Shown piece after piece: positions 11,799 through 40,096 of a DNA stretch of 64,000 nt. Every line of letters starts with the position of its first letter. The stretch's first letter is position 1. The notes beneath the pieces are model-generated. The model did no database searches. It was not told the origin of the DNA and worked only from the letters and a program-made list of their open reading frames with translations. The stretch lies in NCBI RefSeq assembly GCF_006345805.1, contig NC_043001.1, positions 60,760,001 through 60,824,000 of the forward strand, in the 5' to 3' direction. Source of the DNA: Octopus sinensis. Taxonomy: Eukaryota. The position numbers were made by a program, and so were the translations under genes.

Positions 11799-12428
11799 GG
11801 CGGCGAGCTGGCAGACACGTTAGTACACCGAGCGAAATGCGTTTCCTTATTTCGTCTGCCGTTACGTTCTGAGTTCAAATTCCCCCGAGGTCGACTTTGC
11901 CTTTCACCCTTTCGGGGTCGATAAATGAAGTACCAGTTACGCACTGGGGTCAATGTAATCAACTTAATCCGCTTGTCTGTCCTTGTTTGTCCCCTCTGTG
12001 TTTAGCCCCTTGTGGGTAGTAAAGAAATAGAAATAGGCATTTCATCTGCAGTTACCTTCTGAGTTCAAATTCCGCCGAGGTCCACTTTGCCGTTCATCCT
12101 TTCGGGCTCGATTAAATAAGTACCAGTTACACACTGGGGGTCGATCCAATCGACTTAATACGTTTGTCTGTCCTTGTTTGTTCTCTCTGTGTTTAGCGCC
12201 CCTTGTGGGTAGTAAAGAAATAAGTATTTCGTCTGCCGCTACGTTCTGAGTTCAAATTGCGCTGAGGTCGACTTTGCCTTTCAGCCTTTCGGGGTCGATT
12301 AAATAAGTACCACTCTGGCTTTAATCCTTTCAAGGTCAATAAACTATGTACCAGTTGCTTACTGGAATCGATCTAATCGACTGGCCCCCTCTCTTAAAGT
12401 TTCGGGCCTTGTGGCTAGAGTAGAAAAG
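11799..12428 (+). mobile_element. Composite tRNA-derived SINE (three tandem bodies) with a 17 bp target-site duplication
   Basis: B-box-like gagttcaaattcc occurs three times with a repeated body (gtcgactttgcctttca...aagtaccagtt). Flanks gatacataaacaaatta (11781-11797) and gatatataaacaaatta (12429-12445). Confidence 0.85.
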
Positions 12429-24599: not shown

Positions 24600-25645
24600 T
24601 ATAATGGAATTGCTAATAGAAAACTCTTCGTCCACTACCAATCAGCCTTGCCCTCAAGAGCCAAAGCTGCATACGTGAGAAACGAGGTTGCACGTATAAA
24701 CAACAATTGCAGCAACGTGATCGACAAAGACGTCAACACCAAACAGTTCTTCAGAGACATAACCCTGAACAGCTACCCGTCATCTTTAGCTAAACAACGG
24801 CGACTGATGAACATCAGGGTCAATAAATCCCAGAAGAACCATCATACTCCGGTACGTGCTTCCTAAAGCTACCACACTTTAGCGATAGAACTACAATACG
24901 CTGTCCTTAGGGAAGGACTCCACTTAAAGATAGTGCACATGGCCCCTTCCATGAGAAAATCTCTGTCCAAGAACAACACCTCACGATACTCCGAAGAGTG
25001 TACATTGTCTACACTATCAATGATCCTGAATTGTACCGGAGGACATATGGACATATGGTTGTGGATAAAGAAGACTGTGGGAACAAATTTGGCAATTTTT
25101 GGCAAAATATGTACCCTTTTACCAAGTTATAACAAAAAGTTAGTGAAATATTTAAAATGTTTACAGTTGGATAGATAGACAAATATAACAAAATAATTTG
25201 ATAAAAAATGTGAATTTTTAATTATTTTCTGAGATTTTACAAAAACAACAAAAATATTTTTTAATTTGAGATATATGAGATAATCTGTGGCAAATGTGGC
25301 GCATCCTACATCAAAAGCACGACATAAAAACTGCACTAAGGAACACATGCAGGTAGACACTTCCGTGAAGAAACATCTGCAGAATTGCCAGAGCCGGGAA
25401 TTCACAGTGCTCATCGAGGCAACACAGTGGAACAGTGGTGACCTTAAAATCTCTGAGGCCATTCTCCTACAACAAAAGAAACCTATGATGAACAATGGAA
25501 GAAAGTTACAAGAAGCTAGCTGGTTACAATAGCAACCCTCTTCTGCGCATATCCACTCCACAGACGCTCTCACATACGCACATCGACAACATTCGTCAAT
25601 TTTTTTAAAATGGCGTCATAACCCCGAAATAGTGTATCCAAGGTA
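24600..25645 (+). pseudogene. Penelope-like element relic: RT thumb, linker and GIY-YIG endonuclease, interrupted by an insertion
   Basis: Peptides KLFVHYQSALPSRAKAAYVRNEVARINNNCS, then KKTV | IYEIICGKCGASYIKST (GIY-YIG, split by an AT-rich insert at ~25080-25268), then LKISEAILLQQKKPMMN. Confidence 0.8.
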
Positions 25646-25787
25646 AGTCTACATTAATTCATATATTTGCTTTTTTGTGCTTTACCTTGCATTTACTTCG
25701 CATTGTTTTGGCCTTACCCACGATCATTTATACTGTATATATATACATATATACACACATATATATGAACATATATATATGTATATG

Positions 25788-26044: not shown

Positions 26045-26114
<70 letters not shown>

Positions 26115-26656
26115 TAAATTTACATATAGAGGGCATTATACATACATGCCAGAAGGCATTATACATACATGCCAAACGCTAAGAGGGACAATTAGTCATT
26201 TCTACCAAAAATATTACTAATCCCACCGAATGCAATTTTTCAAAGTAAGACATTTAAAAAATTGCATTCGGTGGGATAGTAATATTTTTGGTAGAAATGA
26301 CTAATTGTCCCTCTTAGCGTTTGGCATTGTATGTAATGCCTTCTGGCATGTATGTTTAATGCCCTCTATATATAAATTAATATGTTCAATAAGAAATAAT
26401 TATTTTCGAAATTTTTTCTCTTATGAGGTTTTTACGCTATCTACCTGACAATTCTTGTTAAGTCCTTATTAAGTAGTTGTCCTTAATTGCTAAATTTTTA
26501 TTCCGAAAAATCTTTTCCTCTCCCGAAATGCAATTCGTAAAAGTTTGCCATTTATCCGGGATAATATATGTAAACTCACCCATGTGCTTCGTTGATGTCG
26601 AGCAGTTAGCTGATCGGCTTAACGGGGCAGGGTCGTTGTTTATTTATAATAATTCA

Positions 26657-26702
26657 GGCCTGCTGATGAGTACGTAAGTATGAAATCACTGTGATACAGG
26701 TC
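26657..26702 (+). ncRNA. Minimal type I hammerhead ribozyme, copy 1
   Basis: ggcctg CTGATGA gtac-gtaa-gtat GAAA tcac-t-gtga TA caggtc. Confidence 0.9.
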
Positions 26703-27137
26703 TATATTTTTTTTAATGTCTTACTTTGAAAAATTGCATTCGGTGGGATTAATAATATTTTTGGTAGAAATGACTAATTGTCCCTCTTAGCGTTTGGCAT
26801 GTATGTATAATGCCTTCTGGCATGTATGTATAATGCCCTCTATATATAAATTAATATGTTCAATAAGAAATAATTATTTTCGAAATTTTTTCTCTTATGA
26901 GGTTTTTACGCTATCTACCTGACAATTTCTTGTTAAGTTTTCCTTATTAAGTAGTTGTCCTTAATTGCTAAATTTTTATTCCGAAAAAACTTTTCCTCTC
27001 CCGAAATGCAATTCGTAAAAGTTTGCCATTTATCCGGATGTAATATATGTAAACTCACCCATGTGCTTCGTTGATGTCGAGCAGTTAGCTGATCGGCTTA
27101 AGCGGGGCAGGGTCGTTGTTTATTTATAATACATTCA

Positions 27138-27183
27138 GGCCTGCTGATGAGTACGTAAGTATGAAATCACTGTGATACAGGTC
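27138..27183 (+). ncRNA. Minimal type I hammerhead ribozyme, copy 2
   Basis: Identical to 26657-26702. Confidence 0.9.
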
Positions 27184-27610
27184 TATATTTTTTTAAATGT
27201 CTTACTTTGAAAATTGCATTCGTGGGATTAATAATATTTTTGGTAGAAATGACTAATTGTCCTCTTAGCGTTTGGCATGTATGTATAATGCCTTCTGGCA
27301 TGTATGTATAATGCCCTCTATATAAAATTAATATGTTCAATAAGAAATAATTATTTTCGAAATTTTTTCTCTTATGAGGTTTTTACGCTATCTACCTGAC
27401 AATTTCTTGTTAAGTTTTCCTTATTAAGTAGTTGTCCTTAATTGCTAAATTTTTATTCCGAAAAAAACTTTTCCTCTCCCGAAATGCAATTCGTAAAAGT
27501 TTGCCATTTATCCGGATGTAATATAGTAAACTCACCCAGGCTTCGTTGATGTCGAGCAGTTAGCTGATCGGCTTAAGCGGGGCAGGGTCGTGTTTATTTA
27601 TATACATTCA

Positions 27611-27656
27611 GGCCTGCTGATGAGTACGTAAGTATGAAATCACTGTGATACAGGTC
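27611..27656 (+). ncRNA. Minimal type I hammerhead ribozyme, copy 3
   Basis: Identical to 26657-26702. Confidence 0.9.
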
Positions 27657-27922
27657 TATATTTTTTTAAATGTCTTACTTTGAAAATTGCATTCGGTGGG
27701 ATTAATAATATTTTTGGTAGAAATGACTAATTGTCCCTCTTAGCGTTTGGCATGTATGTATAATGCCTTCTGGCATGTATGTATAATGCCCTCTATATAT
27801 AAATTAATATGTTCAATAAGAAAAAATAAATTATTTTCGAAATTTTTTCTCTTATGAGTTTTTACGCTATCTACCTGACAATTTCTTGTTAAGTTCCTTA
27901 TTAAGTAGTTGTCCTTAATTGC

Positions 27923-27979
<57 letters not shown>

Positions 27980-28985
27980 ATACACACACACATACGTATC
28001 AAGTATCAAATAAAAGAAACATGAGAAGCGATATTTGTGAAATACTTGCAATGTTGTTCACTGCTTGTGTTTCCTGCTCAAAATATCAAAATAACTGGCA
28101 TACTTCTAAAGCAAATATTTAAAAAAAAGTCTTGGATTAATTTCCTTTGATAAACTTGACACGGAACAGCAAGATTCATAAGTGAATAGTGCCAATGAAT
28201 GACACTATCAAATTAACTAAGTAATGTAATATTAGAAAGAAAACATCATTCAGAAAGTTAGAGAAAAATTTTTTTAAATATATAAATATAAATATTCTGA
28301 AATGAAAATAGCAAGAGTATATAATGAATTTGCAGATAAAGCATTCTTAGCGCCTTAATAACAAACATGCGTTTTCGTCCTCGAGATTGTGTGTGGTGGG
28401 AGAATTTATTTTCATATATCTTCACAATCAAAATATTTTGTAGTTGGATTTTGTCATTGAAAGAACGTCTGTGGTGTGGAATTAAAACTATATTGTTTTC
28501 TGCTTTCTCTTTCCTGTCCCACATGAATATGGTTTACATGCTAGCTTTTCTCTCTTTTGAATTATCGATTGTCAGCGAAGATAGTTTCTGATTATTTTTA
28601 ATAAATTATGAAGCACTGTCCGACTTCTTTAATACTTCCTTTCTGTCAAGCAGAATTTACTTTTAATACATTCAATATTGACACTTATATAGTTTACGTG
28701 ACGCTATATAGATTTTGTTTTGTTTTTTAATTATTTTGAATGAAGCTAAATAATTCTTATTATCCCATAATTCTCAATACGTTTTTGTTTATAATGCTGC
28801 TTGTCAGTATTCTTGTATGCCTGCCTACCTGCCTGCTTGCTTAACTGCCTGTTTGCTTGCCTGTTTGTTTCTCATTCATTCTCGCTCTCCCAATCATCCT
28901 CTTTGACCCTCTCAGCATACACACACTAATATGTATGCGCACATATTTACATACAAGTATATGTGCGTGTGTGTGTTAATAACAC

Positions 28986-32889: not shown

Positions 32890-33560
32890 ATTAATTAGAG
32901 ACAAAACCACTATTATGCAAATCAAACTGCTGGATGTGGTGTTTCCTCTGTGTTGTTGTCATGCTGAGTGAGTGTGTTTATGAATGAGGGTTGTATGTGT
33001 GTGTGTGGGAGTATGAATAAGTAATGTGTAGAAGTATACGGCTACTTTATTAATTTATCGTTGCCTAGATGTTTATGTGTATGTATAGAGATATATATAT
33101 GGGTGTGTGAGTTAGTGTATGTATTTAGATATGTTTATATATATACTTAGATATATGTGTATGAGCATGTGTGTATATATATTTTATTTTTTGCTTTTTG
33201 TTTTTTGAAATTAGATTCTTCATCTTTAAATATGAGAACTTAAATACTAGGTTTCATTATATTCAATTGTTTATAGAGGTTATTTTAGTTCATGATTATA
33301 TATAGATTAAATATAGATTATATATATATTTTTTCATTGATAAATTTATATTATTTATATTTTTTAGTCATTTTAAATTTATATCTTAAAAATATTGATT
33401 ATTTTTAGATCTGAAAACCACCTGATGAATGTCCTTAGAAGAGACACGAAACAATTGTAGTGGCTAATTTAATTTTATCTAATTTATATAAAATTTGTAT
33501 GTATTGGATTAAGTCTTTCTTTGTTTGATTTGCATAATAGTGGTTTTGTCTCTAATTAAT
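32890..33560 (+). mobile_element. pLTR-like unit with a 5' inverted end, in (TA)n
   Basis: attaattagagacaaaaccactattatgcaaatcaaac (from 32890) is mirrored at 33523-33560; hammerhead at 33418-33463. Confidence 0.75.
33418..33463 (+). ncRNA. Minimal type I hammerhead ribozyme
   Basis: ccac CTGATGA atgtc-cttagaaga-gacac GAAA caattg TA gtgg. Confidence 0.85.
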
Positions 33561-39292: not shown

Positions 39293-39841
39293 ATTCCACT
39301 CGTGCGGTACCCTACAACTCCACTTTGTGATATATATACATACATATATATATATAAAGTTAACCCAAACATGAAAGCACAAAAAAATACAACAACACAG
39401 GACGTGGAACAAATATAATATTATTGGACGCTCAGGAAAGAAGGAAAGATGGAGGGTTTACTGTTTCGAGCGGAGCTCTTCGTCGGAAACATAGGAGAAG
39501 GAAAGATCCAGAGAAGGGAAGACAGAGGAAAAAATCGCTAACGGTACACACGTGGTGACATTTTATATATATATATATAATATATATATATATACAATTT
39601 ATATTTAATGTAGGATAAAATATTTTTCGAAAAAGAAATTTTATCAATGGCCAGCATATTAAAAAAATACCTTTAAAGGTTAAAATTATAAACAACTTAT
39701 AAATAAGGGCAAACGAAAAAATTTCTAATGCCAAATATGCCAAAAATTGGACATATTGTCCATTAACATATAATTTTTCACAATACGCACGCTACTCGAA
39801 AAAAAGCCGACAGAAATCTCTAAAAAATTCCATTATTACCA

Positions 39842-39894
39842 TATCGGACCGATTTCAGGGTTAGTTCGTAAGAACCGTCCCTTCGTCAGTGATA
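39842..39894 (-). ncRNA. Minimal type I hammerhead ribozyme
   Basis: Minus strand: tatca CTGACGA aggg-acg-gttc-ttac-gaac-taa-ccct GAAA tcgg TC cgata. GUC site. Confidence 0.8.
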
Positions 39895-40096
39895 AATGTG
39901 GCAAAGAAATAAATGAGATACTTACTCATACCCATGGAAGAAGCTAAACACTAAGTCATGAGCACAACTAAGTACCCCAAATACATCCAAAATAGAAATA
40001 CTCCAGCCCATTCAAGACACGTGCGATTTGAACTGAGGCTCTCACAGAGTGAAAGAGTCCGAAAGTGAACACTTAAATTTATATTTAATGTATTGG

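What the first reader, a model, noticed from the sequence alone, without database searches (positions are those of the whole stretch)
26117..27927. Young head-to-tail array of ~480 bp ribozyme units, like a rolling-circle product
Seen: ~3.5 near-identical units differing mainly by single-base indels, each complete unit with an identical 46 nt hammerhead, no ORF, a 5' inverted piece starting just after the ribozyme, and TA runs on both sides. Inference: a transcript would self-cut into ~480 nt monomers able to circularise, and the array is what RT going around such a circle would leave. The indels may be long-read errors.
Basis: partly seen in the sequence, partly recalled or inferred. Interest (0 to 1): 0.8.

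Follow-up and report, generated by a model that had tools for sequence, protein, structure and literature searches.

The report
Ribozyme retroelement inserted from both ends
This array is one of many hundreds of near-identical, gene-less ribozyme-motif repeats scattered through this animal genome; nearly every two-armed copy ends at one fixed site on one side and a second fixed site on the other, so it is likely a parasite that a Penelope-type reverse transcriptase copies into both ends of a cut TA repeat, probably from a small RNA circle.

Summary
Observation confirmed: a 150-bp inverted arm plus 3.5 head-to-tail ~480-bp units, three identical type I hammerhead motifs, no ORF, (TA)n on both sides. 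It is a young dispersed family (1,050 candidates; 3,565 exact ribozyme-motif matches, control 0) with three 70-90% identical sister families. In 57 of 58 two-armed insertions one arm ends ~150 nt (site A) and the other ~275 nt (site B) after the cleavage site; none is A-A or B-B. This is the Penelope-like-element (PLE) 'tail at one end' signature, stretched to ~120 nt; intact Neptune-type PLEs in the genome also end at two sites in (TA)n. Both arms share locus-specific variants (210 fixed against 22 partly shared), arms run through the cleavage site many times, and helices covary between families: a non-LTR retrozyme, likely PLE-mobilised from one monomer template, probably a circle. Against: cleavage and circle untested, stem II closes with G-U, Rfam misses it, no helper PLE shares the unit, and this locus carries a private change in 3 of 5 copies, which points to some later DNA-level expansion. 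A new member of a known kind, with unusually clear insertion anatomy.

The parts
26077..26111 (.). left (TA)n target remnant
   Evidence: TRF row 26077-26128; sequence
26112..26261 (-). inverted arm, unit positions 12-161; its 3' end (left) is site A, ~150 nt after the cleavage site
26253..26261 (.). joint of the two arms (5' end to 5' end), 9-nt overlap in an A/T run
26253..27927 (+). direct arm, 3.5 head-to-tail units (u0 26253-26696, u1 26697-27177, u2 27178-27650, u3 27651-27927); its 3' end is site B, ~275 nt after the cleavage site
26656..26703 (+). type I hammerhead motif 1; predicted cleavage after 26696 (AUA)
   Evidence: core invariant in 238-246 of 239-246 copies per column; stem I covariation
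27137..27184 (+). type I hammerhead motif 2; predicted cleavage after 27177
27610..27657 (+). type I hammerhead motif 3; predicted cleavage after 27650
26718..27030 (+). predicted multi-branch domain of unit u1, closed by a long-range helix; sites A and B lie in unpaired AT-rich stretches just 3' of hairpins inside it
   Evidence: consensus fold of 13 monomers from families A, B, C; 14 of 120 pairs with double changes
27073..27095 (+). unit positions 377-399: site where a separate 1.7-kb LINE-like element has inserted at other loci; possible transcription start (inferred)
27926..27982 (.). right (TA)n target remnant

Best explanation
It is a gene-less, dispersed, hammerhead-motif repeat (a non-LTR retrozyme) whose insertions have two outward-pointing arms in (TA)n, likely made by a borrowed Penelope-type reverse transcriptase-endonuclease that primes both ends of a cut on one ~480-nt RNA, probably a circle. 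Steps: (1) a tandem array is transcribed on the ribozyme strand (suggested); (2) neighbouring hammerheads, likely as dimers through the palindromic stem III, cut out monomers, which a host ligase would close (inferred); (3) a Neptune-type PLE protein cuts both strands of a (TA)n tract (inferred from the anatomy); (4) one DNA end primes at site A and the other at site B of the same template (ends shown; priming inferred); (5) each cDNA runs a variable distance, through the ribozyme site, giving 0.1-11 units per arm (shown); (6) the two cDNA ends are joined by microhomology or short inserts (joints shown, repair route inferred); (7) arrays can later grow by DNA-level duplication (inferred for this locus).
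For: Dispersed and young: 39 scored loci of 1,050 candidates, most at 97-100%. End rule: 35 of 35 two-armed loci in the best-hit set and 22 of 23 in a position-ordered set along contig C1 are A+B, none A-A or B-B, one A+other; sister family C 13 of 13 distinct two-armed loci, family F 8 clear cases. Intact RT+GIY-YIG elements with a Cys linker exist in the genome (781 and 775 aa) and also end at two sites, 35-45 nt apart, in (TA)n; both readable two-armed loci of the 775-aa family are heterotypic. Published PLE anatomy is the same: partial tandems, inverted 5'-truncated copy, tail at one end (PMC8557442, passages); a purified PLE protein cuts and extends both strands and starts at two internal RNA sites that define the tail (PMC11167929). 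One template: at sites covered by both arms, 210 variants are fixed in both, 22 partly shared, 176 single-unit; 10 variants private to one locus are fixed in both arms; 32 distinct variant sets among 56 loci of 2 or more units; within-locus difference 0.52%, opposite arms 0.59%, between loci 1.32%. No template end: 1 of 122 inner ends lies at the cleavage site. Two one-armed loci have a fold-back copy of their own flank in place of the second arm (L040, L059), as expected of a break with two free ends. RNA-level selection: stem I pairs 1, 3, 4, 5 change on both sides between families; circular fold z = -5.4 to -6.4 (3 monomers, 40 shuffles each). Clustered A>G on the ribozyme strand in contigs of runs guessed to be RNA (X17 21 of 28 changed places; four places shared with X18 and X19, depth 0 in DNA runs X2, X7), suggestive of A-to-I editing.
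Against: Cleavage, circle and priming were not observed. Stem II closes with G-U here (G 93, U 87, A 65 opposite U) and the lowest-energy fold mispairs the core (-13.2 against -10.2 kcal/mol); Rfam gives no hammerhead match even at E 5. In the PLE assay ribozyme cleavage was not needed and unprocessed RNA was the main substrate; 8 of 9 Xenopus retrozyme dimers did not cleave in vitro. No helper found: no autonomous PLE locus examined carries the unit; best similarity is marginal (1 of 200 shuffles, 18 tests). At this locus A56 is in u1-u3 only; 18 mixed-variant cases in 46 loci, some in two-unit blocks. Linear multimers from already uniform arrays would also give shared variants. The A>G runs are only guessed to be RNA, are contigs of low depth, X9 and X11 show no such excess (3 of 14, 4 of 18), and no DNA of the same individuals was laid. 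The covariation rests on three related families, so few independent events.
Confidence: 0.7

Rival explanations
1. Same PLE-type two-site insertion, but the template is an uncleaved linear multimer transcript (or repeated jumps on a linear monomer); the ribozyme cuts weakly or serves another purpose.
For: PLE protein uses unprocessed RNA in vitro; weak stem II base; most tested retrozyme dimers did not cleave; mixed arrays exist.
Against: 32 distinct locus-fixed variant sets need repeated passage through a single unit; 5' truncation alone would shorten arrays each generation, yet arms of 10-11 units occur; no cluster of inner ends that would mark a transcript 5' end; ribozyme core and stem I conserved with double changes across four families.
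Confidence: 0.2
2. Insertions are short (about one unit per arm or less) and the tandem arrays arise afterwards by DNA slippage or unequal exchange, or in part by assembly error.
For: G56A in three adjacent units here; two-unit blocks of variants in L059 and L060 that do not extend to the outer segments; many private deletions in u0 and u2.
Against: Cannot explain the fixed A/B ends or variants shared across inverted arms; only 12 multi-unit one-arm variants against 210 fixed in both arms; the head-to-tail joint is also in contigs of DNA run X2.
Confidence: 0.07
3. The unit is the detached terminal repeat (pLTR) of an autonomous PLE that is still linked to its ORF somewhere in this genome, and the arrays are truncation products.
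For: Retrozymes are reported to resemble pLTRs of PLEs in Xenopus (bioRxiv 10.64898/2026.07.22.740005); only part of the family was read.
Against: In 142 sequences holding family copies no RT ORF is joined to the unit except L259, and 29 of 29 other copies of that old PLE lack the unit; the 36 position-ordered loci were mapped for arm ends only; four ORF-less families keep a 460-497-nt period.
Confidence: 0.03

Closest known systems
Animal non-LTR retrozymes (Cervera and de la Pena 2020, PMC7229834: coral, mussel, axolotl; Li et al. 2026, bioRxiv 10.64898/2026.07.22.740005)
   Same: Dispersed tandem repeats, one type I hammerhead per unit, no ORF, low GC, palindromic stem III, weak stem II base (as axolotl HHR_Amex2), predicted self-paired monomer.
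   Different: In the parts I read these papers describe no inverted second arm, no fixed two-site ends and no (TA)n target; the PLE link there rests on co-occurrence and pLTR similarity. Here the insertion anatomy itself is PLE-type. Unit (460-497 nt) is a little above the 150-450 nt of the 2020 paper. Circle and cleavage are shown there, untested here.
Penelope-like elements with endonuclease: Neptune/Poseidon/Naiad (Craig et al. 2021, PMC8557442; Frangieh et al. 2024, PMC11167929)
   Same: Partial tandems, inverted 5'-truncated copy, tail at one end, two internal start sites, AT-rich or (TA)n targets, hammerhead upstream of the start sites.
   Different: No RT-endonuclease ORF; tail ~120 nt rather than 30-40; near-strict one-site-per-end rule (in vitro no strand difference was seen); no sequence match to the terminal repeats of the intact elements examined.
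Non-autonomous Chlamys elements such as MRC1 (PMC8557442, passage)
   Same: Non-autonomous PLE derivatives with multicopy head-to-tail insertions.
   Different: That clade lacks canonical hammerheads and shares 3' sequence with autonomous partners; algal.
L1 twin priming (recalled, no call)
   Same: Two target ends primed on one RNA give an inverted 5' part.
   Different: Twin priming ties the inner end of the direct arm to the second priming site; here inner ends are spread over the unit and both priming sites are internal and fixed.

Membership tests
type I hammerhead ribozyme | core CUGANGA, GAAA, U-H at the cleavage site | tested here: met
   each core column holds the expected base in all but 0-4 of 239-246 copies, N7 in 241 of 243
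type I hammerhead ribozyme | three helices, helix I open | tested here: met
   7-bp stem I with double changes between families; 4-bp stem II; palindromic stem III (self-duplex -9.1 kcal/mol)
type I hammerhead ribozyme | G10.1-C11.1 pair at the base of stem II (recalled as usual) | tested here: not met
   G, U or A opposite U in family A; U-U in family B; G-C or A-C in families C and F. A U-U variant cleaves in axolotl
type I hammerhead ribozyme | match to an Rfam hammerhead model | tested here: not met
   none at gathering score or at E up to 5
type I hammerhead ribozyme | self-cleavage | not testable with these tools
   needs transcription assay
non-LTR retrozyme | tandem units of a few hundred bp, each with a type I hammerhead | tested here: met
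non-LTR retrozyme | no protein-coding capacity, GC below 45-50% | tested here: met
   longest ATG frame 49 aa, GC 33%
non-LTR retrozyme | dispersed, mobile copies | tested here: met
   82 loci with distinct joints and flanks
non-LTR retrozyme | transcribed | tested here: inconclusive
   held by contigs of runs only guessed to be RNA; A>G clusters in 3 of 5 such runs laid
non-LTR retrozyme | accumulates as circular RNA | not testable with these tools
   contigs cannot tell circle from tandem
non-LTR retrozyme | target-site duplication when present | tested here: inconclusive
   ends lie in (TA)n, where a duplication cannot be read
autonomous Penelope-like element | RT plus GIY-YIG ORF | tested here: not met
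   no ORF; none joined to family copies
PLE-mobilised element | partial tandem with inverted 5'-truncated copy | tested here: met
   58 two-armed of 82 loci
PLE-mobilised element | tail present at one end only | tested here: met
   57 of 58 two-armed loci A+B; tail ~120 nt
PLE-mobilised element | microsatellite or AT-rich target | tested here: met
   arm ends run into (TA)n
PLE-mobilised element | sequence shared with the terminal repeat of an autonomous partner | tested here: inconclusive
   no match to the families examined; marginal score to one; other PLE families in the genome not read

The most novel reading that the evidence does not exclude
One Penelope-type protein complex holds one ~480-nt ribozyme-made RNA circle, cuts both strands of (TA)n, and primes one end at site A and the other at site B, so that two reverse transcriptases roll round the same circle and their products are joined in the middle; the lineage has lived long enough as a helper-independent-sequence parasite to split into four families, is edited by ADAR, and is itself targeted at its start site by an ORF1-only LINE.
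Probability: 0.45. Interest if true: 0.7.

Novelty: new member of a known kind. Interest (0 to 1): 0.5.

Why it matters
Two questions are open in the papers read: which enzyme moves animal retrozymes and whether the circle is the template (proposed, not shown), and how PLEs make their tandem-plus-inverted insertions (named as open). This family leaves a large fossil record that answers the first by anatomy (PLE-type) and sharpens the second to a rule: one start site per end, one template for both arms. With intact Neptune-type proteins in the same genome and a published in vitro PLE assay, both can be tested directly.

Tried and rejected
No RNA holder listed: no run holding the stretch is on record as RNA; runs marked RNA are guesses. 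The 1.7-kb ORF between unit positions 399 and 377 (L045, L054) first looked like the coding body of an autonomous or segmented element; rejected, because it has its own target duplications, its own tandems and many other targets, and occurs in only one of several passes of an array. L259 looked like a PLE ORF running into the unit; rejected, 0 of 29 other copies do so. Clustering of inner ends at the cleavage site, suggested, vanished with a multimer reference. A>G excess among genomic copies (edited RNA copied back): not seen, 24 of 108 A sites against 31 of 148 T sites. Rfam hits are miRNA models on the inverted joint and TA runs, all below cut-off. The nearby old PLE remnant (24613-25640) shows no similarity to the unit. 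Empty-site test in other individuals not run: the flanks are long simple repeats and no related genome is held. Earlier-findings look-ups by place and by sequence were empty. Literature: searches found no paper on this element or on a cephalopod retrozyme; the squid genome paper only counts 235 hammerhead matches (passages). Subscription papers and supplements (for example the family tables of the bioRxiv paper, supplement of PMC7229834) were not seen and may hold related elements.

Full report
Observation. The array is as described: an inverted arm at 26112-26261 and a direct arm at 26253-27927 of 3.5 units, between (TA)n tracts. Each complete unit carries the same type I hammerhead motif with predicted cleavage after 26696, 27177 and 27650; there is no ORF and GC is 33%. 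Rfam does not recognise the motif. Unit positions below count from the cleavage site.

A family, not a local repeat. One unit finds 1,050 candidates in the genome; 39 were scored, most at 97-100%. An 18-nt ribozyme motif occurs 3,565 times against 0 for its control; related motifs add 280 (control 0) and 930 (control 23). These belong to sister families B, C and F of 460-497 nt at about 70-90% identity. The host is probably an octopus: the only database relative of a protein from this genome is from Octopus vulgaris (inference).

Insertion anatomy. I mapped 46 family-A loci chosen mostly as best hits (41 including the window, 5) and 36 more taken in order along contig C1. 58 of the 82 have two arms with 3' ends pointing outward into (TA)n. 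In 57 of these one arm ends at site A (about position 145-160) and the other at site B (about 272-282); none is A-A or B-B; one is A plus position 184. 24 loci are one-armed or unclassified. The window is A on the left, B on the right. Family C shows the same in 13 of 13 distinct two-armed loci and family F in 8 clear cases, with 3 or 4 loci I could not read. Inner ends are spread over the unit, 1 of 122 at the cleavage site; of 61 joints 39 overlap by 1-32 nt, 8 are blunt and 14 carry inserts of 1-21 nt. In two one-armed loci the missing arm is replaced by an inverted copy of the locus's own flank.

One template per insertion. At positions covered by both arms, 210 non-majority bases are fixed in both arms, 12 are in several units of one arm, 10 partly in both, 176 in a single unit; 10 bases private to one locus are fixed in both arms (9 loci); 56 loci of two or more units fall into 32 variant sets (homopolymer columns left out). 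Copies differ by 0.52% within a locus and 1.32% between loci. This needs repeated passage through a single unit, which a circle gives most simply. Exceptions exist: 18 mixed cases in 46 loci, among them two-unit blocks in L059 and L060 and the window's own G56A in u1-u3. I read these as DNA-level duplication after insertion, or assembly duplication; so unit number is not a plain count of rounds.

RNA structure. The ribozyme core is near-invariant. Stem I changes on both sides between families. Stem III is a palindrome, a feature that published animal hammerheads use to cleave as dimers (PMC4209133, first quarter of the text; PMC7229834, parts 2-4 of 6 and passages). The base of stem II is G-U, A-U or U-U, and the lowest-energy fold mispairs the core, so activity may be low. 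Thirteen monomers fold into a closed structure with 14 of 120 pairs changed on both sides (shuffles 7.2 on average, slid controls 0-3; related sequences inflate this). Sites A and B both lie in unpaired AT-rich stretches just behind hairpins in one domain.

Expression. Contigs of five runs guessed to be RNA cover the whole unit. X17 shows 21 A>G among 28 changed places on the ribozyme strand; four of these places recur in X18 and X19 (the latter in one contig of depth under 5) and have depth 0 in DNA runs X2 and X7; X9 and X11 show no excess. This suggests transcription with A-to-I editing (extensive in cephalopods; recalled) but lacks matched DNA. Contigs of X9, X11, X19 leave the unit into TA at site B and one of X17 at site A.

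Helper. The genome holds young intact RT plus GIY-YIG elements of 781 and 775 aa with a Cys linker, which I label Neptune-type after the description in PMC8557442. Both end at two sites 35-45 nt apart in (TA)n; the two readable two-armed loci of the second are heterotypic. Their terminal repeats do not match the unit beyond a marginal score. No RT ORF is joined to the unit in 142 sequences except one chance neighbour. The helper is therefore inferred by anatomy and not identified.

Comparison. By unit type it is a non-LTR retrozyme (PMC7229834; bioRxiv 10.64898/2026.07.22.740005, parts 1-3 of 5). By insertion type it is PLE-mobilised: tandem plus inverted copy plus tail at one end (PMC8557442, passages), two internal start sites and extension of both strands (PMC11167929, parts 1-2 of 4). 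New here are the ~120-nt tail, the near-strict one-site-per-end rule and the shared variants across arms. Six literature searches gave no description of this element. An earlier AI note on another genome reports a ribozyme-free tandem element with Penelope-type ends; I did not test it.

Verdict. Real, ordinary in kind, informative in detail. PLE-type two-site insertion of a non-autonomous retrozyme: about 0.9. Circular template: about 0.6-0.7. New member of a known kind; interest 0.5.

Noticed in passing
L054:4072-5772, L045, L069, L078; family B loci L081, L089, L095, L096, L104: A young 1.7-kb LINE-like element with only an ORF1-like gene (464 aa, CCHC knuckle, ZCCHC3-like features; 732 candidates) inserts at unit positions 377-399: 4 family-A and 5 family-B loci of 39 read; 15 more sit at one site of another repeat. 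Its first 17 bases equal the family-B target, as if its source copy is transcribed from an initiator inside a retrozyme unit (inferred).
   Followed up: partly
window 24613-25640 (+): Old, broken PLE remnant (RT thumb to GIY-YIG, 60-70% to other copies) ending near the (TA)n at 25736.
   Followed up: partly
window 39596-40090 (-), hammerhead at about 39835-39895: Another ORF-less hammerhead element with palindromic stem III and AUA site, between (TA)n tracts; related copies in L166.
   Followed up: no
window 33410-33470 (+): Minimal hammerhead motif about 100 nt before a (TA)n tract, probably a further PLE-derived end.
   Followed up: no
L166:1474-5177, L173:4742-7818: The intact Neptune-type elements have an upstream ORF overlapping the RT-endonuclease ORF in another frame, in several copies: a possible programmed frameshift or two-ORF PLE.
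   Followed up: no
L170 upstream of the ORF: A different short element is joined to the 781-aa Neptune-type element exactly at one of its start sites, with its own inverted arm: a possible template switch.
   Followed up: no
L032:2961-5109 and L296:2185-3258: Whole two-armed insertions duplicated in tandem: later duplication or assembly effect.
   Followed up: no
window 11848-12312: 2.5 copies of a 190-bp unit, likely a SINE in tandem (recalled resemblance).
   Followed up: no
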